From sequence record NC_019723.1: a stretch of DNA of 47,090 nt, one strand, 5' to 3'. Positions 547 to 43,908 of the stretch are shown piece by piece. The notes beneath the pieces are model-generated. The model was given only the letters and a program-made list of their open reading frames with translations. It was not told the origin of the DNA and did not search any database. Within the stretch, counting starts at the first letter, position 1, and each line of letters starts with the position of its first letter. This DNA is from Escherichia phage HK630. Made by a program: the position numbers and the translations under genes.

Positions 547-4227
<3,681 letters not shown>

Positions 4228-4247
<20 letters not shown>

Positions 4248-5547
4248 TCTCCCGCATATTGCCAGCATGGCCTTTAATGAGCCGCTGATGCTTGAACCCG
4301 CCTATGCGCGGGTTTTCTTTTGTGCGCTTGCAGGCCAGCTTGGGATCAGCAGCCTGACGGATGCGGTGTCCGGCGACAGCCTGACTGCCCAGGAGGCACT
4401 CGCGACGCTGGCATTATCCGGTGATGATGACGGACCACGACAGGCCCGCAGTTATCAGGTCATGAACGGCATCGCCGTGCTGCCGGTGTCCGGCACGCTG
4501 GTCAGCCGGACGCGGGCGCTGCAGCCGTACTCGGGGATGACCGGTTACAACGGCATTATCGCCCGTCTGCAACAGGCTGCCAGCGATCCGATGGTGGACG
4601 GCATTCTGCTCGATATGGACACGCCCGGCGGGATGGTGGCGGGGGCATTTGACTGCGCTGACATCATCGCCCGTGTGCGTGACATAAAACCGGTATGGGC
4701 GCTTGCCAACGACATGAACTGCAGTGCAGGTCAGTTGCTTGCCAGTGCCGCCTCCCGGCGTCTGGTCACGCAGACCGCCCGGACAGGCTCCATCGGCGTC
4801 ATGATGGCTCACAGTAATTACGGTGCTGCGCTGGAGAAACAGGGTGTGGAAATCACGCTGATTTACAGCGGCAGCCATAAGGTGGATGGCAACCCCTACA
4901 GCCATCTTCCGGATGACGTCCGGGAGACACTGCAGTCCCGGATGGACGCAACCCGCCAGATGTTTGCGCAGAAGGTGTCGGCATATACCGGCCTGTCCGT
5001 GCAGGTTGTGCTGGATACCGAGGCTGCAGTGTACAGCGGTCAGGAGGCCATTGATGCCGGACTGGCTGATGAACTTGTTAACAGCACCGATGCGATCACC
5101 GTCATGCGTGATGCACTGGATGCACGTAAATCCCGTCTCTCAGGAGGGCGAATGACCAAAGAGACTCAATCAACAACTGTTTCAGCCACTGCTTCGCAGG
5201 CTGACGTTACTGACGTGGTGCCAGCGACGGAGGGCGAGAACGCCAGCGCGGCGCAGCCGGACGTGAACGCGCAGATCACCGCAGCGGTTGCGGCAGAAAA
5301 CAGCCGCATTATGGGGATCCTCAACTGTGAGGAGGCTCACGGACGCGAAGAACAGGCACGCGTGCTGGCAGAAACCCCCGGTATGACCGTGAAAACGGCC
5401 CGCCGCATTCTGGCCGCAGCACCACAGAGTGCACAGGCGCGCAGTGACACTGCGCTGGATCGTCTGATGCAGGGGGCACCGGCACCGCTGGCTGCAGGTA
5501 ACCCGGCATCTGATGCCGTTAACGATTTGCTGAACACACCAGTGTAA
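4228..5547 (+). CDS. C: capsid assembly protease C (GTG start)
   Basis: 439-aa product from GTG at 4228 (VTAELRNLPHIASMAFNEPL...), overlapping the B stop; the longer 484-aa ORF-track frame is treated as upstream read-through. Confidence 0.9.
4942..5547 (+). CDS. nu3: scaffolding protein Nu3 (in-frame internal start within C)
   Basis: ATG at 4942 (MDATRQMFAQK...) in the C frame, 201 aa; lambda Nu3 arrangement. Confidence 0.8.
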   Translation: MDATRQMFAQKVSAYTGLSVQVVLDTEAAVYSGQEAIDAGLADELVNSTDAITVMRDALDARKSRLSGGRMTKETQSTTVSATASQADVTDVVPATEGENASAAQPDVNAQITAAVAAENSRIMGILNCEEAHGREEQARVLAETPGMTVKTARRILAAAPQSAQARSDTALDRLMQGAPAPLAAGNPASDAVNDLLNTPV

Positions 5548-32627: not shown

Positions 32628-33044
32628 TTATACCTCTGAATCAATATCAACCTGGTGGTGAGCAATGGTTTCAACCATGTACCGGATGTGTTCTGCCATG
32701 CGCTCCTGAAACTCAACATCGTCATCAAACGCACGGGTAATGGATTTTTTGCTGGCCCCGTGGCGTTGCAAATGATCGATGCATAGCGATTCAAACAGGT
32801 GCTGGGGCAGGCCTTTTTCCATGTCGTCTGCCAGTTCTGCCTCTTTCTCTTCACGGGCGAGCTGCTGGTAGTGACGCGCCCAGCTCTGAGCCTCAAGACG
32901 ATCCTGAATGTAATAAGCGTTCATGGCTGAACTCCTGAAATAGCTGTGAAAATATCGCCCGCGAAATGCCGGGCTGATTAGGAAAACAGGAAAGGGGGTT
33001 AGTGAATGCTTTTGCTTGATCTCAGTTTCAGTATTAATATCCAT
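32628..33044 (-). CDS. gam: Gam (RecBCD inhibitor)
   Basis: 138-aa [62 protein letters not shown]..., lambda Gam. Confidence 0.95.
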
Positions 33045-33142
33045 TTTTTATAAGCGTCGACGGCTTCACGAAACATCTTTTCATCGCCAATAAAAGTGGC
33101 GATAGTGAATTTAGTCTGGATAGCCATAAGTGTTTGATCCAT
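32999..33142 (-). CDS. kil: Kil host-killing protein
   Basis: 47 aa [47 protein letters not shown] within the longer ORF-track frame. Confidence 0.8.
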
Positions 33143-33275
33143 TCTTTGGGACTCCTGGCTGATTAAGTATGTCGATAAGGCGTTTCCATCCGTCACGTAA
33201 TTTACGGGTGATTCGTTCAAGTAAAGATTCGGAAGGGCAGCCAGCAACAGGCCACCCTGCAATGGCATATTGCAT
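33111..33275 (-). CDS. cIII: CIII (FtsH inhibitor)
   Basis: 54 aa [54 protein letters not shown], identical to recalled lambda CIII. Confidence 0.93.
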   Translation of the reverse strand: MQYAIAGWPVAGCPSESLLERITRKLRDGWKRLIDILNQPGVPKNGSNTYGYPD

Positions 33276-33333
33276 GGTGTGCTCCTTATTTATACATAAC
33301 GGAAAACGCCTCTCGTGAAGCGTTATTGGTATG

Positions 33334-33362
33334 CATATAAAAAGGCCCTCACATTGGAGGGC
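33334..33362 (-). terminator. rho-independent terminator upstream of cIII in the leftward operon (tL2-like)
   Basis: Stem GCCCTC/GAGGGC (33345-33350 / 33357-33362) with a 6-nt loop, followed on the minus strand by a T-run. Confidence 0.5.
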
Positions 33363-33572
33363 AAAGAAGATTTCCAATAATCAGAACAAGTCGGCTCCTG
33401 TTTAGTTACGAGCGACATTGCTCCGTGTATTCACTCATTGGAATGAATACACAGTGCAGTGTTTATTCGTATGCCTGTCTTTTAACCACATCAGGCTCGG
33501 TGGTTCTCGTGTACCCCTACAGCGAGAAAAATAGTAAAATCCTCTTACCCCTACAGTAAGAGAGTAATTTAT

Positions 33573-34067
33573 ATGGATGTGTTATCTGGTATAACTGCCG
33601 CGAAACAGGCTTATGATCTGCTGAAGACAATAAAAGAAACCAGAGACGATGCTGTTATCGCTAAAGCTATTGGTGATCTACACCAAAGAATAACTGACTT
33701 ACAGATGCTTAATGCGGAGCTCTCTGGCCTTTATCAGGCCGAGAAGGAGATCGCAATGAAGCTTCGAGATGAAAATAGAAAAATCAAGATGTTTGTTGTG
33801 CAAGCTGAGAATTATGAACTTCATACAACTGAAGGTGGTTCTGTCGTGTATCGACCTAAGAGTCATTCCGATCATTCTATTCAGCAGCATAACCTTTGTG
33901 CACATTGCTTCGGCGAACATAAAATATCGATACTTCAACCAAGCACGGTTACTATAAAATCTAATGGATTCTTTGTGCATTCATGTCCTCGCTGTAAGAA
34001 TGAATACCGGATGTATAGAGCGCCAGACCCTAAGCCTGTATATGTACCGCCGCTGACAAATTATTAA
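33573..34067 (+). CDS. hypothetical coiled-coil / zinc-ribbon protein, transcribed opposite to the pL operon
   Basis: 164-aa ORF with SD AAGAGAG 8 nt upstream of ATG; helical heptad-like N-terminus; C-terminal CAHC...CPRC pairs; no lambda gene recognised here. Confidence 0.6.
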   Translation: MDVLSGITAAKQAYDLLKTIKETRDDAVIAKAIGDLHQRITDLQMLNAELSGLYQAEKEIAMKLRDENRKIKMFVVQAENYELHTTEGGSVVYRPKSHSDHSIQQHNLCAHCFGEHKISILQPSTVTIKSNGFFVHSCPRCKNEYRMYRAPDPKPVYVPPLTNY

Positions 34068-34097
34068 TTTTATTCCTGAAATGGCCTCTTCACCCCC

Positions 34098-34460
34098 TTA
34101 CTTTGTCAGGGGGATATCTCCTTCAGTTTTGACCATTCGCCTTAATACTTTCCTTAAGTCGATGTAAAGTTGAAGGTCTCCATTTGCTGCGGCATCAGCC
34201 ATTTTTTGCCTGACAAGCAGTAATGTTTCATACGGCTCAATAAGAATATCGTCATGAGTAATTAGGTGAAGCGTTGCCGCATCAACTATTCCTAGAGCTG
34301 CGCCAAGTATCAAAAATTCCCTGCTATTTTTGTCGCATGAGGAGATAAGCGTATTTAGCGCATACCTAATATTCTTTATAGCTGTTGTTAATGCTGCAAT
34401 TTCTTCTATGGCGTCTTCTCCAATGAGCTTTTTAAGCTCATATTTTTCTTCCTGACCCAT
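34098..34460 (-). CDS. hypothetical protein immediately downstream of N (position of lambda sieB)
   Basis: 120 aa from ATG 34460 (MGQEEKYELKKLIGEDAIEEIAALT...) with GAGGT SD; starts 3 nt after the N stop; not hydrophobic, so unlike SieB. Confidence 0.55.
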   Translation of the reverse strand: MGQEEKYELKKLIGEDAIEEIAALTTAIKNIRYALNTLISSCDKNSREFLILGAALGIVDAATLHLITHDDILIEPYETLLLVRQKMADAAANGDLQLYIDLRKVLRRMVKTEGDIPLTK

Positions 34461-34462
34461 AA

Positions 34463-34735
34463 TTACCTCGCCGTCAGTTGTTTTGATTTCCGGTAGCCTG
34501 CCGCGTAAATGGCTACGTTTGGCAGGCAAATACTTCCACTGCATTCTTCTGCCTTCTTGCAGCGAATGCTTCCGAGTGATGCTGCTTTATCTGCTCTGAC
34601 GCAACCAGAGAGCTTTAGCGCAATTTTTCGCGCCAGTCGCTGCTCTTGCATTGCCTGTTCACGTTGAGCCTGTCTGCGTGCTCTGCGGCGATTTCTGGCG
34701 TTATCGTCAGCCAGATATGTAATGACTACTGTCAT
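34463..34735 (-). CDS. N: N-like transcription antiterminator
   Basis: 90 aa; arginine-rich motif NARNRRRARRQAQREQ near the N-terminus; C-terminus ...LPNVAIYAAGYRKSKQLTAR resembles recalled P22 gp24; GGAGG SD; nut site downstream. Confidence 0.75.
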   Translation of the reverse strand: MTVVITYLADDNARNRRRARRQAQREQAMQEQRLARKIALKLSGCVRADKAASLGSIRCKKAEECSGSICLPNVAIYAAGYRKSKQLTAR

Positions 34736-34839
34736 GTTGACCTCCGATGATTGACTTTGGCGGTGACGCGCCGGGTGCTTATCTTCAGGTTGCCGTCGTG
34801 CAGCTGCACTTCACGTCACCCCAAAGCCAACTACTCTTT

Positions 34840-34885
34840 GGTTCCCGCATTTCGGCGGGACAATCCCATCAATGTTAAAGAGCCT
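34840..34885 (-). promoter_or_regulatory. nutL: nutL (boxA GCTCTTTAAC, boxB hairpin CCCGC-CGAAAU-GCGGG)
   Basis: On the leftward transcript, boxA-like CTCTTTAAC followed by a 5-bp stem/6-nt loop hairpin; the same boxB recurs at nutR. Confidence 0.65.
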
Positions 34886-34924
34886 GCCAATCTGTTCCGT
34901 TTGGCTTCCAGCGTCCTGCTGATG

Positions 34925-35035
34925 GCTAAAGAATACTGTAGGTATTTTATTGTGTAAATACCCAAGGTATTTATTTTTGATGAAATAATGATAAACAAAT
35001 GAATACAAAGGATATTTATTTTTTCGCTGTCTGCT
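34925..35035 (-). promoter_or_regulatory. OL / pL operator-promoter region
   Basis: Perfect 19-bp palindrome TAAATACCCAAGGTATTTA (34955-34973) plus imperfect copies GAATACTGTAGGTATTT (34931-34947) and GAATACAAAGGATATT; upstream of nutL and N. Confidence 0.6.
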
Positions 35036-35102
35036 TGTTCAGTGATTTTTATGCGGGATATGTGAAGTGGATCCCGATAGCTATTGCTGCCGGGATTATG
35101 GG

Positions 35103-35471
35103 TTAGTCAGCGAAGGTTAAGACGAGAATTACCTTAATGATGTCTGCTACAACAGACACGGCCATAGATAAACCAAAGACGATCCAAGCCACAGTGATGT
35201 CTTCACTACCATCGTATAGAGTTCCGTAATCACTGGTGTAAGGCGTAAATGTCGCGCCTTGATACAATAGGTATAAGCTTGATCCATAGAGGATAAATGC
35301 AGATATCCCTTGTATTGCTATGATCACAAGAATCATGAAACGAGCTGATCTATGCGCCCAAGCCTGGCTTATTTTTTCTGATAGAGATTTCGCAATAAAA
35401 GCATGCGCTAAGACGTAAATTGTCGAGATTGCCAACATCCCAAAAAAGCTTGCTATAGCGGTTCCAACCAT
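35103..35471 (-). CDS. hypothetical integral membrane protein co-transcribed with cI (position of rexAB)
   Basis: 122 aa from ATG 35471 (a TTG at 35492 would give 129 aa); about 3 predicted TM segments; AAGGGG SD; begins 18 nt after the cI stop. Confidence 0.65.
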   Translation of the reverse strand: MVGTAIASFFGMLAISTIYVLAHAFIAKSLSEKISQAWAHRSARFMILVIIAIQGISAFILYGSSLYLLYQGATFTPYTSDYGTLYDGSEDITVAWIVFGLSMAVSVVADIIKVILVLTFAD

Positions 35472-35488
35472 AATCGCCCCTTGCGTGA

Positions 35489-36205
35489 TCAAACCAGCCT
35501 TAGTTTTGTCTCAATTGCAACGCCTATAATCTTGCAGTTTCCATTGATTGGCACGAGAGGCCATGCAGGATTAAGTCCCTTGAGGTATTTATTTCCGCCG
35601 TCGATTATCAGCTTCTTGAATGTTGCTTCGTTAGAGTCAGAAAGTTTTGCTATGACCAAGCTGCCGTTGATCGCCTCCCTTCCGGTATCGAAAAGAACGA
35701 ATGTTCCCTCTGGAATGCTTAACCCAACCGGTGCCGTCATTGAATCACCTTCCACTTTAAGCCAGAACGCATTACCTTGAATATGCGCGTCAGACTCAAG
35801 CCAAACATCTATGTCTTTAATGGTGTATGGTTCGCATGCTTCACACCACGAGCCAGCCTGGATACTGCTTAACACCGGATACCTCTTTCCTGCTCTGTAT
35901 TCCCCTGCATACCTTACGTTGGCATCGCTCTTAAGGCTTTCTGCCTGTTCTGCAACCTTGGCAACAATTGACTGGCTAAAATCAGCAATAGAGACTTGCA
36001 ACAATCGTGCAAAACCAGATGCAACCTCAACGTTTAGCGCGTTTCTGCCATTAAGATAATGCCCTACCGCTCCTTGGGTGATACCCAGTTCATCAGCGAT
36101 TGAGTATTGGGTTATTCCCAATTCTTTCTTTTTTGACTCATACAAAGCCTTAAGCCGCTTAGCGTCTTCGAGCTGTTCTGTCGTCAGTGATTTTTTATTT
36201 TCCAT
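35489..36205 (-). CDS. cI: CI-family repressor (HTH N-domain + LexA/S24-like C-domain), non-lambda immunity
   Basis: 238 aa MENKKSLTTEQLEDAKRLKALYESKKKELGITQ...; C-terminal ...WLKVEGDSMTAPVGLSIPEGTFVLFD...ATFKKL... resembles CI/C2 autocleavage domains. Confidence 0.9.
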   Translation of the reverse strand: MENKKSLTTEQLEDAKRLKALYESKKKELGITQYSIADELGITQGAVGHYLNGRNALNVEVASGFARLLQVSIADFSQSIVAKVAEQAESLKSDANVRYAGEYRAGKRYPVLSSIQAGSWCEACEPYTIKDIDVWLESDAHIQGNAFWLKVEGDSMTAPVGLSIPEGTFVLFDTGREAINGSLVIAKLSDSNEATFKKLIIDGGNKYLKGLNPAWPLVPINGNCKIIGVAIETKLRLV

Positions 36206-36300
36206 AGCTTAATTCTAATAGCTAAGGTACTTAAACTAAAAATACCCTGAGTATTGATTGCTTTGAATACCTGTAGTATTCTTTGTTCATGGTTAATAAC
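36206..36300. promoter_or_regulatory. OR operators with divergent pRM/pR
   Basis: Operator-like palindromes AAATACCCTGAGTATT (36238-36257) and GAATACCTGTAGTATTC (36264-36283) between divergent cI and cro, same half-site as OL. Confidence 0.6.
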
Positions 36301-36311
36301 GGAGAGTGCAT

Positions 36312-36506
36312 ATGATTCGAATGACACTTGCCGATTACGCCAAAATCCATGGACAGGCTAAAGCAGCCAGTGACTTTGGTGTAATCCAGTGCGCTATCAG
36401 CAAGGCCATTCTGGCAGGCCGTAACATCATGGTTACGGTAAAGCCTGATGGCAGTGTGATTGGAGAGGAAGTTCGTCCTTTCCCAAGCAACAAGAAAAAC
36501 AAATAG
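36312..36506 (+). CDS. cro: Cro-like repressor
   Basis: 64 aa [64 protein letters not shown], similar to lambda Cro in the HTH and C-terminal PFPSNKK; GGAGAG SD. Confidence 0.88.
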
Positions 36507-36511
36507 TAACA

Positions 36512-36561
36512 CCGCTCTTTAACAGTCATGGTCCTCATTCCCGCCGAAATGCGGGAATACA
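36512..36561 (+). promoter_or_regulatory. nutR: nutR (boxA CGCTCTTTAA, boxB hairpin identical to nutL)
   Basis: CGCTCTTTAA at 36512-36521 and hairpin TCCCGCCGAAATGCGGGAA at about 36540-36560, between cro and cII. Confidence 0.65.
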
Positions 36562-36614
36562 ACGCGCATAAGTTGATGCGCATAACTTCTTATTTGTTAA
36601 GGAAATACTTACAT

Positions 36615-36893
36615 ATGCAACTTACAAGTACTCGCAAGAAAGCGAATGCAATTACAAGCAACATCCTAAATCGAATTGCTGTACGTGGTCAGCGAAAGGT
36701 TGCTGATGCATTAGGGATCAATGAATCGCAAATTTCGCGATGGAAAGACAGCTTTATCCCAAAGATGGCCATGCTTCTGGCTGTGCTGGAGTGGGGTGTT
36801 GAAGACGAGGAGTTGGCGGAACTGGCTAAGAAAGTAGCCAGAATGCTGACAAAAGAAAAAGCCCCGAAGAACGGCGAATTCTTCGAGGCCTAA
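36615..36893 (+). CDS. cII: CII-like transcriptional activator
   Basis: 92 aa from ATG 36615; ...[45 protein letters not shown] closely matches recalled lambda CII ([25 protein letters not shown]). Confidence 0.88.
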
Positions 36894-36927
36894 TGTAGAA
36901 AGACTGGATCAATCCACGGGAGTAATT

Positions 36928-37074
36928 ATGACAAAACAACTCAGTCCTTACCAGGACAAAATTCACAAACACATACTACGTGATCGCTTCCTGTCCAGCT
37001 TCAAGCAGCCTGGTCGATTCCGGGCTGAGTTGGAAAAAGTGAAGCTGATGCAGAAGGAGAAAGGTCATGAGTAA
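36928..37074 (+). CDS. small basic hypothetical protein (48 aa) overlapping the O start
   Basis: ATG 36928 with GGAG 8 nt upstream; [48 protein letters not shown]; below the ORF-track size cutoff. Confidence 0.35.
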
Positions 37075-37966
37075 CATATCTAATCTAGCCGAAGCCAGAG
37101 AGGCCAGAAGGCTACAACAACCGCATCAAAGCAGCGGTAAGGGGTATGCCTTGCTGCACCGTAAAATTATGGATGTGCCGTTTTACAAGGACGCAGAAGC
37201 AGCGCATCTGTGGGTTCACTTAATTCTCAAAGCAAAGCATACGCCTGAGTATGTAATGACTGACGCAGGAGAAATTCTGGTAGGCAGAGGGAAGCTACTT
37301 GGCGGTAGAAACTCTCTGGCGTTTGAAACAGGACTCAAACCAGATCGCGTTCAGTACCTGCTTAGAAAGTTCAAAAAACTCGGCATGATTGACTGGGTTT
37401 CACACGGTAAATTCTCAGTTTTCTCGGTAGAGAAATATGACGATTATCAGTCAAATTTTGTACCAGCAGATTACCAGCAAATTACCACCTCAAAGCCAGC
37501 AATACCAATGCCTGTAAGCAATACTGTACCAGCAGATTACCAGCAAATTACCACAGATAAAGAATATAATAATATTATCTCTAATACTGACGTATTAGAG
37601 AGTGCCACAGTAGACAAAAAGTCTGACAAGAAAAAACCTTCCGTTAGCTGTCAGGATGTTGTCGATGCTTACCACGAAATCCTTCCTGAAGCGCCAAAAA
37701 TCCGCGCACTGAATGACAAGCGTAAAAACCAGATCCGAACGTTCTGGCGCAAAGCCGGAGTGATAACCCGCCAGCTTGACGGGCATGGGTTCACGATGCA
37801 GGACTGGAGAAATTATTTGATCTACGTAGGCGAAAATTGCCGATGGATGTTCGAAGAACGCCCAAACCATCAACGCGGAACCGTCTGGCACAAAAAGGGA
37901 TTTGATTTCCTGCTTAACGACAATACCTACCTGAAAGTTCGTGAGGGTGAACACGATGACCGATAA
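37067..37966 (+). CDS. O: replication initiator (O-like), iterons embedded in the coding sequence
   Basis: 299-aa ORF at the position of lambda O; the internal direct repeats encode the duplicated [10 protein letters not shown] peptide. Confidence 0.8.
37460..37600. repeat. ori: replication origin: two 29-bp direct repeats (six ~11-bp TACCAGCA iterons) plus AT-rich stretch
   Basis: GTACCAGCAGATTACCAGCAAATTACCAC at 37460-37488 and 37526-37554, followed by AGATAAAGAATATAATAATATTATCTCTAATA. Confidence 0.65.
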
Positions 37967-39392
37967 TTTTTATGCGCCGCCCCATAGCATCGAGGCAGAG
38001 CAGGCGGTGATTGGTGGATTGCTTCTGGATGATGACAGCAGTGAGCGCGTCCAGAAAGTTCTGGCGATGCTGAAGCCTGACTCATTTTACAGCCGGCCAC
38101 ACAAAATCCTTTTCGAAGAAATAACCAGAATGCACCGGGAGCAAAAGCCAGTAGATGGCCTGACGCTTTTCGATGAACTGGAGCGTAAATCGTTAACGGC
38201 GTCTGTTGGCGGTTTTGCTTATATCGCTGAGATCGCAAAGAACACGCCGAGCGCCGCAAACATCGTTGCCTATGCAATGCAGGTTCGTGAAACCGCAATG
38301 GAACGCTACGCCATCAACCGCATGACTGAAGCGACGGAATTGCTCTATTCCCGCAACGGAATGACTGCAACGCAGAAGTACGAAGCTATTCAGGCGATTT
38401 TCACGCAACTGACAGACCATGCAAAAACCGGATCGCGTCGCGGCCTTCGCTCATTTGGTGAGGTCATGGAAGACTGGGTTAGCGACCTTGAGAAGCGATT
38501 TGACCCGTCAGGCGAACAGCGAGGAATGAGCACAGGGATCCCATCGCTGGACAGGATGCTGTCACCGAAAGGTCTGGTGAAAGGTTCTCTGTTTGTCATT
38601 GGCGCTCGCCCTAAGATGGGGAAAACGACGCTATACAGCCAGATGGCAATCAACTGCGCAGTGCATGAGAAAAAGCCCGCTCTGATGTTCAGCCTTGAAA
38701 TGCCAGGTGACCAGATACTGGAAAAACTGGTAGGGCAGAAGTCTGGTGTTAACCCGAATATTTTTTACCTTCCGGCGACAAATGACGCTGATGACGGCTA
38801 TCAGGGTGATTACGATGGTGACTTCAACAGGGCGATCGAAACAGCCAATCGCTTGAGTGAAATCGACATGCTTTACATCGACGACACGCCGGGATTATCT
38901 CTGGCTCAAATCGTCAGCGAAAGCCGTCGAATCAAGCGAGAAAAAGGATGTGTTGGCATGATTCTGGTCGATTACCTGACACTAATGACCGCTGAAAAGG
39001 CCGATCGCAACGACCTTGCTTACGGCATGATCACCAAAGGACTGAAGAACCTTGCCAAAGAGCTTGATTGCGTTGTTGTGCTTCTGACGCAGCTTAACCG
39101 CGCATTGGAAAGCAGAACCAATAAACGCCCATTACCAAGTGACTCACGAGATACAGGGCAGATTGAACAGGATTGCGATTATTGGGTGGGGATCCATCGT
39201 GAAGGCGCTTTTGATGACAGTGTTCCACCTGGTGAAACTGAACTAATCCTTCGTCTCAATCGTCATGGCAATACCGGCACGGTGTATTGCATTCAGGCAA
39301 ATGGCGCTATTTATGACACCGACCAACAGTCTGCTGAAATGCGCCGCCGTGAACGCGAGGAACCGCAGTCCAAGAAGAAAGGAGGATTCTGA
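37956..39392 (+). CDS. DnaB-family replicative helicase
   Basis: 478 aa from ATG 37956, overlapping the O stop; Walker A GARPKMGKTT and DnaB-like N-domain (SIEAEQAVIGGLLLD). Confidence 0.85.
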   Translation: MTDNFYAPPHSIEAEQAVIGGLLLDDDSSERVQKVLAMLKPDSFYSRPHKILFEEITRMHREQKPVDGLTLFDELERKSLTASVGGFAYIAEIAKNTPSAANIVAYAMQVRETAMERYAINRMTEATELLYSRNGMTATQKYEAIQAIFTQLTDHAKTGSRRGLRSFGEVMEDWVSDLEKRFDPSGEQRGMSTGIPSLDRMLSPKGLVKGSLFVIGARPKMGKTTLYSQMAINCAVHEKKPALMFSLEMPGDQILEKLVGQKSGVNPNIFYLPATNDADDGYQGDYDGDFNRAIETANRLSEIDMLYIDDTPGLSLAQIVSESRRIKREKGCVGMILVDYLTLMTAEKADRNDLAYGMITKGLKNLAKELDCVVVLLTQLNRALESRTNKRPLPSDSRDTGQIEQDCDYWVGIHREGAFDDSVPPGETELILRLNRHGNTGTVYCIQANGAIYDTDQQSAEMRRREREEPQSKKKGGF

Positions 39393-39420
39393 TGACCATC
39401 TACATCACTGAGCTAATAAC

Positions 39421-39453
39421 AGGCCTGCTGGTAATCGCAGGCCTTTTTATTTG
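39421..39453 (+). terminator. rho-independent terminator after the helicase gene (tR2-like)
   Basis: Stem AGGCCTGC/GCAGGCCT with 8-nt loop followed by TTTTTATTT. Confidence 0.7.
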
Positions 39454-39467
39454 GGGGAGAGTAAATC

Positions 39468-39674
39468 GTGGCTGAGTTGATTTTCTCTGCATTGAGGATT
39501 CTCGGTGCTATGTGGATGGTGGCGACGTTCATTGTGGTTGCCAGCAGTTTTGTCCGGTTGGTAGGCGAAGGTAAAGACCTGGTTGGTGTGCTTTTCGGTA
39601 GCATTTTTCTGTGGGTGATTATCGGTGTTATGCCTGTCGCTGTAGCAAAAATGGCGTGGCGTTTTGTTAGTTGA
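39468..39674 (+). CDS. hypothetical small two-TM membrane protein
   Basis: 68-aa ORF from GTG 39468 with GGGGAGAG SD; two hydrophobic helices, basic C-terminus KMAWRFVS. Confidence 0.5.
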   Translation: MAELIFSALRILGAMWMVATFIVVASSFVRLVGEGKDLVGVLFGSIFLWVIIGVMPVAVAKMAWRFVS

Positions 39675-39681
39675 GGTGACA

Positions 39682-40092
39682 ATGAAGCAAACAATCTTCC
39701 TCCGAACTAAGCAACAACAGCAAGCTGCAATAAATGCCATCCTCGCAACACCACTCGATAAAGACAAGCCAGTCACCATCCGCATTACTGACTACAAGCG
39801 CAACCTTGACCAGAACGCAAAATTTCACGTGATGCTGGCGGATATCGCTCGTCAGGTTCAATGGTGCGGCAAATGGTTAAAACCGGAACAATGGAAGGTT
39901 TTGTTGATCAGCGGTCATGCAGTGGCTACAAAGCAGGAAGCTGATGTTTTGCCCGGCCTTGAAGGCGAATACGTCAACATTCGCGAAAGCAGCGCGCAGA
40001 TGAGCGTGAAGCGCATGGCAAGCCTGATTGAGTACACGACAGCATGGGCTATTGGTCAGGGTGTCAGATTTACCGACAGGAGGTACGAATGA
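39682..40092 (+). CDS. ninB: NinB (Orf-family recombination mediator) homologue
   Basis: 136 aa from ATG 39682 with GAGGTGA SD; ...[27 protein letters not shown]... resembles recalled lambda NinB (RSLDQNRKLWACLGDVSRQVEWHGRWL) but is divergent. Confidence 0.75.
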
Positions 40093-40265
40093 GACGACAG
40101 CGACGAAGTTTCACCGACATCATCTGCGAAAACTGCAAATACCTTCCAACGAAGCGCTCCAGAAATAAACGCAAGCCAATCCCAAAAGAATCTGACGTAA
40201 AAACCTTCAACTACACGGCTCACCTGTGGGATATCCGGTGGCTAAGACATCGTGCGAGGAAATGA
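40089..40265 (+). CDS. ninE: NinE
   Basis: 58 aa [58 protein letters not shown]; ATGA overlap with the ninB stop. Confidence 0.8.
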
Positions 40266-40669
40266 CAATGCTTTTAATTCAACCTGGATTTGGCCTTAGC
40301 ATCAAAAAAGGGCACATGTTTGGCGAGAAAGAGTCTCAACGAAAAATGGTGTCTATCCAGTTGCCATTTATCAGTATTTTATGGCTAAACAGGGAGGCAA
40401 CAAATTATTGGTATACATGCGCCAGAGCAGCATTTAACGACCCTGACTGGTTTGTGGAAAACCACCACGCAGTTCGTCAGGCAAAGAGAAAGGCCAATAC
40501 GACATACATGAAGGCGTATCGAAAAGCATGGAAAGAACACCGCGATCGATACCAACAAGACATGGAAAAACTTGAATCAGAAAACATGGAATTAAGACGA
40601 AAGCTTGGTGAAGCAAAACGAGACATTGATGCTTACAAGCGACTTTTTAATGGTGAAAGCCATGCTTAG
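40262..40669 (+). CDS. hypothetical protein between ninE and ninF (NinX-like position)
   Basis: 135 aa from ATG 40262 (ATGA overlap with the ninE stop); C-terminal coiled-coil-like region; absent from lambda. Confidence 0.55.
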
Positions 40670-40838
40670 CCCATCCCAATACATTCAATACCAGAAAGAA
40701 AGCGTCGAGCGGGCTTTAACGTGCGCTAACTGCGGTCAGAAGCTGCATGTGCTGGAAGTTCACGTGTGTGAGCACTGCTGCGCAGAACTGATGAGCGATC
40801 CGAATAGCTCGATGCACGAGGAAGAAGATGATGGCTAA
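40662..40838 (+). CDS. ninF: NinF
   Basis: 58 aa [58 protein letters not shown], near-identical to recalled lambda NinF. Confidence 0.8.
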
Positions 40839-43584: not shown

Positions 43585-43908
43585 ATGAAGATGCCAGAAA
43601 AACATGACCTGTTGGCCGCCATTCTCGCGGCAAAGGAACAAGGCATCGGGGCAATCCTTGCGTTTGCAATGGCGTACCTTCGCGGCAGATATAATGGCGG
43701 TGCGTTTACAAAAACAGTAATCGACGCAACGATGTGCGCCATTATCGCCTGGTTCATTCGTGACCTTCTCGACTTCGCCGGACTAAGTAGCAATCTCGCT
43801 TATATAACGAGCGTGTTTATCGGCTACATCGGTACTGACTCGATTGGTTCGCTTATCAAACGCTTCGCTGCTAAAAAAGCCGGAGTAGAAGATGGTAGAA
43901 ATCAATAA
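43585..43908 (+). CDS. S: holin S (S107/S105 dual start)
   Basis: 107 aa [34 protein letters not shown]... with Met1 and Met3 starts and three TM segments. Confidence 0.95.

What the first reader, a model, noticed from the sequence alone, without database searches (positions are those of the whole stretch)
35103..35492. Small multi-pass membrane protein co-transcribed with cI where lambda carries rexAB
Directly downstream of the repressor (18 nt after its stop, AAGGGG SD) is a 122-129-aa protein with about three predicted TM helices and no resemblance to RexA or RexB. Genes in the cI operon are expressed in the lysogen, and in lambda this slot holds the RexAB abortive-infection system, so a membrane protein here is a strong candidate for a prophage-expressed exclusion factor.
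Basis: inference. Interest (0 to 1): 0.62.

Follow-up and report, generated by a model that had tools for sequence, protein, structure and literature searches.

The report
Unstudied membrane gene riding behind cI
The gene is real: a 122-residue, three-helix inner-membrane protein (hkaS of phage HK620, function unknown since 2001) sitting directly behind the prophage repressor in the slot where lambda carries rexAB, so it is a reasonable but untested candidate for a lysogen-expressed phage-exclusion factor.

Summary
The gene is window 35103-35471 (-), 122 aa from an ATG. It starts 17 nt after the cI stop codon and is preceded by an AAGGGG Shine-Dalgarno. It has three hydrophobic helices, predicted N-out/C-in, and the AlphaFold2 model has mean pLDDT 92.

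It is not a new ORF. The DNA is 100% identical to hkaS ('unknown') of coliphage HK620, and the protein is PHROG 6534 ('unknown function'). The window is a lambda backbone carrying HK620's early region.

The family is tiny: 12 clusters among 5.8 billion proteins, and nothing more distant among 1.84 billion representatives. It matches no Pfam, PADLOC or NCBIfam family, and shows no similarity to RexB, 434 Hex or lambda S.

It is a genuine gene, with dN/dS of 0.15-0.2, but it evolves about 4 times faster than its cI. It always sits 17-20 nt behind a cI gene, including in 146 of 5426 complete E. coli genomes.

Closely related cI genes carry other cargo in the same slot. One carries rexA that is 99% identical to lambda's, followed by a 144-aa ORF in rexB's position. 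Others carry Hex homologues.

So the 'rexAB slot' reading is directly supported. An exclusion function is plausible but untested. This is a new member of a known kind, of moderate interest.

The parts
35103..35471 (-). hkaS coding sequence: 122 aa plus stop, a three-helix inner-membrane protein.
   Evidence: ORF and translation. 100% DNA identity to HK620 hkaS. PHROG 6534 aligns over its full length. AlphaFold2 mean pLDDT 92.3. dN/dS 0.15-0.2.
35472..35488 (-). 17-nt cI-hkaS spacer containing the AAGGGG Shine-Dalgarno, 5 nt before the ATG.
   Evidence: Sequence read directly. Homologous loci keep a 17-20 nt spacer with a purine-rich Shine-Dalgarno although the spacer sequence itself has diverged.
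35489..36205 (-). cI repressor, 238 aa, HTH_3 plus Peptidase_S24.
   Evidence: Pfam. Annotated as cI in HK620.
35073..35098 (-). Hairpin AUCCCGGCAGCAAUAGCUAUCGGGAU, starting a few nt after the hkaS stop. Likely 3'-end or terminator element of the cI-hkaS transcript. It has no U tract.
   Evidence: RNA fold. A hairpin sits in the same position in all four other lineages with unrelated sequences, and the Buttiauxella locus L044 has a canonical stem plus T6. The simple terminator scan did not call it.
34991..35021 (-). Position of tIMM as annotated in the HK620 record, transferred by coordinates.
   Evidence: HK620 annotation. I saw no hairpin plus U tract here, so this rests on the annotation only.
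34923..34994 (-). OL1-OL3 operators and the pL promoter, marking the downstream boundary of the slot.
   Evidence: HK620 annotation transferred. The pL-like TTTACA-17-TATTCT was found by the scan. Operator sequences are conserved in L003, L007 and L009.
36216..36290 (+). OR3-OR1 and pR, the region that must also contain PRM, the inferred promoter of cI-hkaS.
   Evidence: HK620 annotation transferred. PRM itself is not annotated and was not mapped here.

Best explanation
hkaS is an interchangeable accessory ('moron') gene in the cI-to-OL slot of a lambdoid immunity region.

It is most likely transcribed with cI from PRM (and PRE) as the last gene of a two-gene operon. It would then be made continuously in lysogens as a 122-residue inner-membrane protein with three helices. 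The predicted topology is N-terminus in the periplasm and C-terminus in the cytoplasm.

The protein has no soluble domain. It can therefore only act inside or at the faces of the membrane.

My best guess is that it protects the lysogen against other phages at the inner membrane. The most likely route is interference with genome entry, as the small membrane proteins T4 Imm, P22 SieA and HK97 gp15 do, or as prophage protein DicB does by inhibiting ManYZ.

Shown here: gene reality, position, membrane character, linkage to cI, and equivalence of the slot to that of rexAB.

Inferred: expression in lysogens.

Guessed from analogy: the anti-phage role and the entry-block mechanism.
For: Gene is real and constrained:
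- dN/dS is 0.146 (window vs L009) and 0.205 (L003 vs L009); cI gives 0.033 for window vs L009 (0.017 vs L007).
- It is intact in 146 of 5426 complete E. coli genomes.

Operon anatomy:
- The spacer is 17-20 nt with a Shine-Dalgarno in five lineages.
- No promoter-like or terminator-like site lies between cI and hkaS.
- A hairpin follows the stop codon in every lineage, and L044 has a canonical terminator there.
- In the analogous BTP1 prophage, cI-bstA is a single-TSS operon expressed in lysogeny (PMC7067206).

Slot equivalence:
- A cI 76% identical to this one carries rexA 99% identical to lambda's, followed by a 144-aa ORF in rexB's position.
- Hex homologues and other cargo follow related cI genes.
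- The literature describes this slot as a hotspot for exclusion and abortive-infection genes (PMC8585504, PMC3564112).

Membrane protein with no soluble domain.

Independent of virion type: it occurs in P22-like podoviruses (HK620), Stx-type podoviruses (phi296, phi367) and this lambda-type genome (PMC12502783).

Fast evolution: the protein evolves about 4 times faster than cI. The periplasmic loop and the outer helix halves are the least conserved (about 0.5 mean identity). The cytoplasmic loop and C-terminus are the most conserved (about 0.7). This fits a surface facing incoming phage components, though it does not prove it.

Precedents: single small inner-membrane proteins that block entry (PMC11436027, PMC10461980) and DicB acting on ManYZ (PMC6832061).
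Against: No experiment or paper links hkaS to any phenotype.

There is no homology to any exclusion or defence family:
- no Pfam, PADLOC or NCBIfam hit;
- the only PHROG hit has unknown function;
- profile search of 1.84 billion representatives finds only the family itself;
- fold searches return only generic helical bundles.

The slot also carries non-defence cargo such as 434 Hex, which stabilises lysogens, so position alone does not fix function.

Faster evolution with dN/dS well below 1 is equally explained by the loose constraints typical of transmembrane helices.

The conservation pattern rests on only five lineages.

The hairpin after the stop in this window lacks a U tract, and PRM was not mapped, so even lysogenic expression remains an inference.
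Confidence: 0.4

Rival explanations
1. Abortive-infection effector. HkaS is a RexB-like membrane executioner: a pore or depolarising oligomer that stays silent in the lysogen and opens when an infecting phage is sensed, killing the cell before progeny form.
For: It occupies the same slot as rexAB. It is a small polytopic membrane protein with conserved intramembrane polar residues Q54, D110 and K113, and its most conserved face is cytoplasmic, where a trigger could act. Its three helices with N-out/C-in topology resemble class I holins.
Against: There is no RexA-like sensor or any second gene between cI and OL. There is no similarity to RexB or to lambda S. It lacks the charged C-terminal tail typical of holins. 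A lone pore former made constitutively would need a gating mechanism, and nothing here points to one.
Confidence: 0.15
2. Host-conversion factor unrelated to phages. HkaS alters a host membrane function to the benefit of the lysogen, for example tolerance to a bacteriocin, antimicrobial peptide or stress, or modulation of a transporter or sensor kinase.
For: It is kept intact in 2.7% of complete E. coli genomes from varied hosts. It is a small membrane protein with no soluble domain, like many modulators of membrane complexes. Pore-forming colicin immunity proteins are also small proteins with 3-4 helices (my own knowledge). Another phage carries PagP next to its repressor (phage Huey).
Against: There is no match to colicin-immunity or any other Pfam or NCBIfam family. 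The characterised cargo of this slot is mostly anti-phage (PMC8585504).
Confidence: 0.2
3. Lysogeny or induction modulator. Like 434 Hex, HkaS tunes the stability of its own prophage, through repressor cleavage, induction threshold or lysis timing, rather than acting on other phages.
For: The 434 Hex precedent occupies the identical position and is co-transcribed from PRM (PMC3564112). hkaS was never found apart from a cI with the same C-terminal (cleavage/oligomerisation) domain type, even when the DNA-binding domain is unrelated (L044).
Against: The same C-terminal domain type, at 84-90% identity, also precedes other cargo or none (L019, L020, L036, L041). The association therefore looks like physical linkage, not functional coupling. 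A protein that is almost entirely transmembrane is an unlikely partner for a cytoplasmic DNA-bound repressor. There is no similarity to Hex.
Confidence: 0.1
4. No useful function. hkaS is a hitch-hiking remnant kept only by its 17-nt linkage to an essential gene.
For: Linkage to cI is very tight. The family is very narrow. Rare frameshifted alleles exist.
Against: dN/dS is 0.15-0.2, and length, start codon and 43 of 122 invariant residues are preserved across lineages whose synonymous sites are saturated. All 146 E. coli copies cover at least 80% of the gene.
Confidence: 0.05

Closest known systems
HK620 hkaS (AAK28867), with the same gene in mEpX2, HK140, HF4s, HZ41, phi296, phi367 and some Stx2c phages; PHROG 6534
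   Same: The same gene. DNA is 100% identical to HK620 over 34900-35700 and 98-99% identical in the others. The PHROG match covers the full length, E=1e-78.
   Different: Nothing differs in the gene. Here it sits in a lambda-type genome rather than a P22-like podovirus. The function is annotated as unknown everywhere.
Lambda RexB (with RexA)
   Same: Lysogen-expressed cargo between cI and OL. Polytopic inner-membrane protein of similar size (144 aa). A cI 76% identical to this one carries rexA and a 144-aa ORF in rexB's position in the same place.
   Different: No sequence or profile similarity. Three helices rather than four. No RexA partner. Its own activity is unknown.
Phage 434 Hex
   Same: A single gene immediately after, or overlapping, the cI stop codon and co-transcribed from PRM. 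Size is 134 aa. Homologues occupy this slot behind related cI genes (PMC3564112).
   Different: Hex has one N-terminal signal-like hydrophobic segment and a soluble domain, whereas HkaS is almost all membrane. There is no similarity.
BstA of Salmonella prophage BTP1
   Same: Encoded downstream of cI, shares the cI promoter, and is highly expressed in lysogens (PMC8585504, PMC7067206).
   Different: BstA acts at sites of phage DNA replication in the cytoplasm (PMC8585504) and is not described as a membrane protein. It is unrelated in sequence: there is no hit in PADLOC, whose coverage of BstA I assume but did not check.
Small inner-membrane superinfection-exclusion proteins (T4 Imm, P22 SieA, HK97 gp15)
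   Same: A single small membrane protein without enzymatic domains, made by the resident phage. This is the mechanism class I consider most likely (PMC11436027, PMC10461980).
   Different: No detectable homology. Those genes lie elsewhere in their genomes, not in the cI operon. No injection-block data exist for HkaS.
Class I holins (lambda S)
   Same: About 105-120 aa, three transmembrane helices, N-out/C-in topology.
   Different: Not in the lysis cassette; the window has its own S gene at 43585-43908. There is no charged C-terminal tail and no similarity.

Membership tests
HkaS / PHROG 6534 | Full-length sequence match to the family profile | tested here: met
   E=1.1e-78, residues 1-122 against profile positions 1-122. 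100% DNA identity to HK620 hkaS.
cI-operon accessory cargo of lambdoid phages (a positional class: rexAB, hex, stk, bstA) | Lies between the cI stop codon and OL/pL, on the same strand as cI | tested here: met
   True in all 11 loci fetched with a homologue.
cI-operon accessory cargo of lambdoid phages | Transcribed from PRM in lysogens | not testable with these tools
   Only anatomy is available: 17-nt spacer, Shine-Dalgarno, no internal promoter or terminator, hairpin or terminator after the stop. No transcript data were found.
cI-operon accessory cargo of lambdoid phages | The slot is exchangeable: related repressors carry different cargo | tested here: met
   rexA plus a 144-aa ORF in rexB's position (L020), Hex homologues (L071, L073, L081), Tlde1, HipA-like, MscS-like, or nothing, behind cI relatives.
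RexAB abortive-infection system | RexB homology | tested here: not met
   hhalign probability 0.7%. No Pfam or PADLOC hit.
RexAB abortive-infection system | Presence of a RexA-like sensor gene | tested here: not met
   hkaS is the only ORF between cI and OL3.
434 Hex | Sequence homology to Hex | tested here: not met
   BLASTP E=4.2.
Known superinfection-exclusion or defence protein families (PHROGs v4, PADLOC v2, Pfam) | Profile match to any annotated exclusion or defence family | tested here: not met
   I did not verify that every known Sie protein has a model in these libraries.
Known superinfection-exclusion proteins | Blocks phage genome entry or plating | not testable with these tools
   Needs plaque and DNA-injection assays.
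Class I holin | Three transmembrane helices, N-out/C-in | tested here: met
   Hydropathy and the positive-inside rule, supported by AlphaFold2 helices. This is a prediction only.
Class I holin | Located in the lysis cassette next to an endolysin, with a charged C-terminal tail | tested here: not met
   The gene is in the immunity region. Lambda S is at 43585-43908. HkaS ends ...LVLTFAD directly after helix 3. No similarity to S.

The most novel reading that the evidence does not exclude
HkaS is the founding member of a new class of stand-alone defence proteins. It would be a sensor-less, three-helix inner-membrane protein that by itself confers broad protection on lysogens against unrelated phages. 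It would work in a way unlike Imm, SieA, gp15 or RexAB. For example, it might recognise membrane-inserting ejection or tape-measure proteins through its variable periplasmic face and signal or gate through its conserved cytoplasmic face.
Probability: 0.12. Interest if true: 0.65.

Novelty: new member of a known kind. Interest (0 to 1): 0.38.

Why it matters
If hkaS does exclude phages, it would add a minimal, single-gene membrane defence to the list of cargo carried in the repressor operon of lambdoid prophages. It is present in about 2.7% of complete E. coli genomes, including prophages of O145:H28 and O111:H8 strains and some Stx2c-converting phages. It is invisible to current defence-finding tools.

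It would also be an easy test case for a rule that is often assumed but rarely tested beyond rexAB, stk, hex and bstA: that 'whatever sits behind cI is a lysogen-benefit gene'.

If it turns out to have no phage phenotype, that would be a useful caution against assigning function from position alone.

Tried and rejected
- Sequence libraries: Pfam, NCBIfam and PADLOC scans gave nothing. The only hit was a meaningless E=0.011 match to Lnt.
- Distant relatives: a profile search of 1.84 billion representatives found only the family itself plus a 44-aa fragment.
- Direct profile comparisons with RexB, 434 Hex and lambda S were all negative.
- Literature searches for hkaS, its accession numbers, PHROG 6534, HK629, and mEpX2 or HK140 exclusion found nothing on function. 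The HK620 genome paper is not held.
- Functional coupling to its own repressor: I considered this because hkaS always follows the same cI C-terminal domain type, even behind an unrelated DNA-binding domain. I rejected it as unsupported, because equally similar C-terminal domains precede other cargo or none.
- HK620's annotated tIMM: I looked for an intrinsic terminator at that position and did not find one. The convincing structure is the hairpin directly after the stop codon.
- Window identity: I first thought the window was phage HK629. It matches HK629 and lambda only in the left arm, and HK629 has a different, P22-type repressor without hkaS.

Full report
**What is there**

On the minus strand, a 238-aa cI repressor (35489-36205; HTH_3 plus Peptidase_S24) is followed by an ORF ending at 35103.

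The ORF list gives a TTG start at 35492 (129 aa), which overlaps the cI stop. The functional start is the ATG at 35471 (122 aa), for three reasons:
- AAGGGG lies 5 nt upstream of it.
- All intact homologues begin at this Met.
- In the Salmonella lineage an in-frame TAA directly precedes the ATG.

The spacer between the cI stop and the ATG is 17 nt.

Hydropathy shows three hydrophobic segments at about 3-27, 45-70 and 92-120. The 28-44 loop is basic and the 71-91 loop is acidic, which predicts an N-out/C-in topology. AlphaFold2, run on a 7-sequence alignment, gives a confident model with mean pLDDT 92.3. It has three long helices, a short amphipathic helix in loop 1 and a small beta-hairpin in loop 2.

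**Identity**

The 801 bp around the gene are 100% identical to coliphage HK620. There the gene is annotated hkaS, 'unknown', with operators OL1-3, pL and a tIMM terminator downstream. The protein is PHROG 6534, 'unknown function'.

The window itself is a lambda genome (virion, int/red and lysis genes). Its central segment, about 33040-40834, is HK620-like at 98.4% identity. It is not HK629, which has a P22-type repressor and no hkaS.

**How isolated the family is**

- Only 12 clusters were found among 5.8 billion proteins. The sources that carry names are E. coli, Hafnia and Salmonella.
- A profile search with no word index over 1.84 billion representatives found only the family itself and a fragment.
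- There are no Pfam, NCBIfam or PADLOC matches.
- Fold searches give only generic helical bundles.
- Profile comparisons with lambda RexB, 434 Hex and lambda S are negative.

**It is a real, constrained gene**

Where synonymous sites are not saturated, dN/dS is 0.146 and 0.205. For cI the value is 0.033 for the same window-L009 pair.

Across lineages HkaS is 52-60% identical, while the adjacent cI is 86-88% identical and Cro is 84-95%. The protein therefore evolves about 4 times faster than its neighbours.

Conservation is highest in the cytoplasmic loop (KISQAW.HR.ARF) and in the inner half of helix 3, including the invariant C-terminus ILVLTFAD. It is lowest in the periplasmic loop and the outer halves of helices 2 and 3. 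This rests on five lineages and is weak evidence.

**Linkage and the nature of the slot**

The gene is present in 146 of 5426 complete E. coli genomes. It is always chromosomal and nearly always single-copy. A query covering cI plus hkaS together also returns 146 genomes and 147 places, each covering at least 80% of the query.

In every locus fetched with a diverged homologue, the gene sits 17-20 nt after a cI and before OL/pL and N. The surrounding N, replication and recombination genes differ between loci.

I then surveyed 80 species-representative genomes carrying cI relatives. One more hkaS turned up, in Buttiauxella locus L044:
- Its cI has an unrelated DNA-binding domain (27-28% identity) but an 84-88% identical C-terminal domain.
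- It is followed by a canonical stem plus T6 terminator.

The same C-terminal domain type, at 84-90% identity, also precedes other cargo:
- nothing convincing (L019);
- a 99-aa soluble ORF (L036);
- a 131-aa one-helix protein (L041);
- in Siccibacter (L020), rexA 99% identical to lambda's, followed by a 144-aa ORF in rexB's position.

Other relatives carry Hex homologues and Tlde1-, HipA-like-, MscS-like- and DUF1275-domain proteins.

So hkaS is one of many interchangeable cargos of a known hotspot, and it is literally an alternative to rexAB. The published literature already describes the cI-N interval this way and lists rexAB, 933W stk, 434 hex and bstA as lysogen-expressed occupants (PMC3564112, PMC8585504, PMC7067206).

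**Expression**

This is inferred, not shown.
- There is no sigma-70-like promoter or terminator between cI and hkaS.
- The Shine-Dalgarno and short spacer are kept even though the spacer sequence has diverged.
- A stable hairpin follows the stop codon in all lineages, with unrelated sequences. In this window it lacks a U tract.
- I could not see a terminator at the position HK620's annotators called tIMM.

**Mechanism**

With no soluble domain, HkaS must act within the membrane. It is a single gene with no sensor partner, it would be made constitutively, and it travels with cI across at least three virion types (PMC12502783).

I rank the explanations as follows:
1. A lysogen-expressed anti-phage factor acting at the inner membrane, probably by hindering genome entry. 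Precedents are Imm, SieA, gp15 and DicB acting on ManYZ (PMC11436027, PMC10461980, PMC6832061). About 0.4 for the overall statement.
2. A host-conversion factor unrelated to phages (0.2).
3. A RexB-like abortive-infection effector (0.15).
4. A Hex-like modulator of lysogeny (0.1).
5. No function (0.05).

None of these is supported by direct data. No paper reports a phenotype.

**Verdict**

The function is an untested analogy. The gene has been annotated since 2001, and the idea that cargo behind cI benefits lysogens is established. This is a plausible new member of a known kind: moderately interesting and cheap to test.

Noticed in passing
L020 (Siccibacter colletis NZ_JMSQ01000026) 2501-4613: A cI 76% identical to the window's is followed by rexA that is 99% identical to lambda rexA and by a 144-aa ORF in rexB's position (not itself compared with lambda RexB). 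Near-identical lambda rex genes therefore sit behind an HK620-type repressor in another genus.
   Followed up: partly
L044 (uncultured Buttiauxella) 2501-3600: An hkaS homologue (55% identity) lies behind a hybrid cI whose DNA-binding domain is unrelated (27-28% identity) but whose C-terminal domain is 84-88% identical. It is followed by a canonical terminator, CCCGGA...TCCGGG plus T6. This shows recombination within cI that keeps the C-terminal domain and hkaS together.
   Followed up: partly
window 33573-34067 (+): This is hkaP of HK620, labelled 'putative superinfection exclusion protein' in AF335538. It lies on the opposite strand inside the pL operon. It has a coiled-coil N-terminal half and a CxxC...CxxC C-terminus. 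It matches PHROG 1244 (unknown function) and has 34 homologue clusters across Enterobacterales. It may be a second lysogen-expressed cargo gene.
   Followed up: partly
window 34098-34460 (-): This is hkaQ, directly downstream of N. It matches PHROG 7374 (unknown function). The only other hit is an insignificant AbiH match (E=0.16).
   Followed up: no
L019-L098 (80 loci with cI relatives), just downstream of cI: A crude ORF survey shows very diverse cargo behind related repressors: 434-Hex homologues (L071, L073, L081), a Tlde1-domain protein (L045), a HipA_C-like protein (L066), an MscS-like channel (L042), a DUF1275 membrane protein (L022), a 122-aa three-helix protein with a zinc ribbon (L091), and tiny 50-52-aa membrane peptides (L024, L058).
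   Followed up: partly
P0005, P0007, P0009 (hkaS alleles): These are rare alleles in which the first 30 or so residues are replaced by an out-of-frame sequence. They are probably frameshifts that remove helix 1, so occasional inactivation occurs.
   Followed up: no
window 22128-22326 (+) and 33230-33288 (-): Rfam matches above gathering score: IS009 (224 bits) in the lambda b-region, and the lambda cIII thermoregulator.
   Followed up: no
window 34991-35021 (-): HK620's annotated tIMM position shows no hairpin plus U tract in my fold or scan. The conserved structure is instead the hairpin at about 35073-35098.
   Followed up: partly
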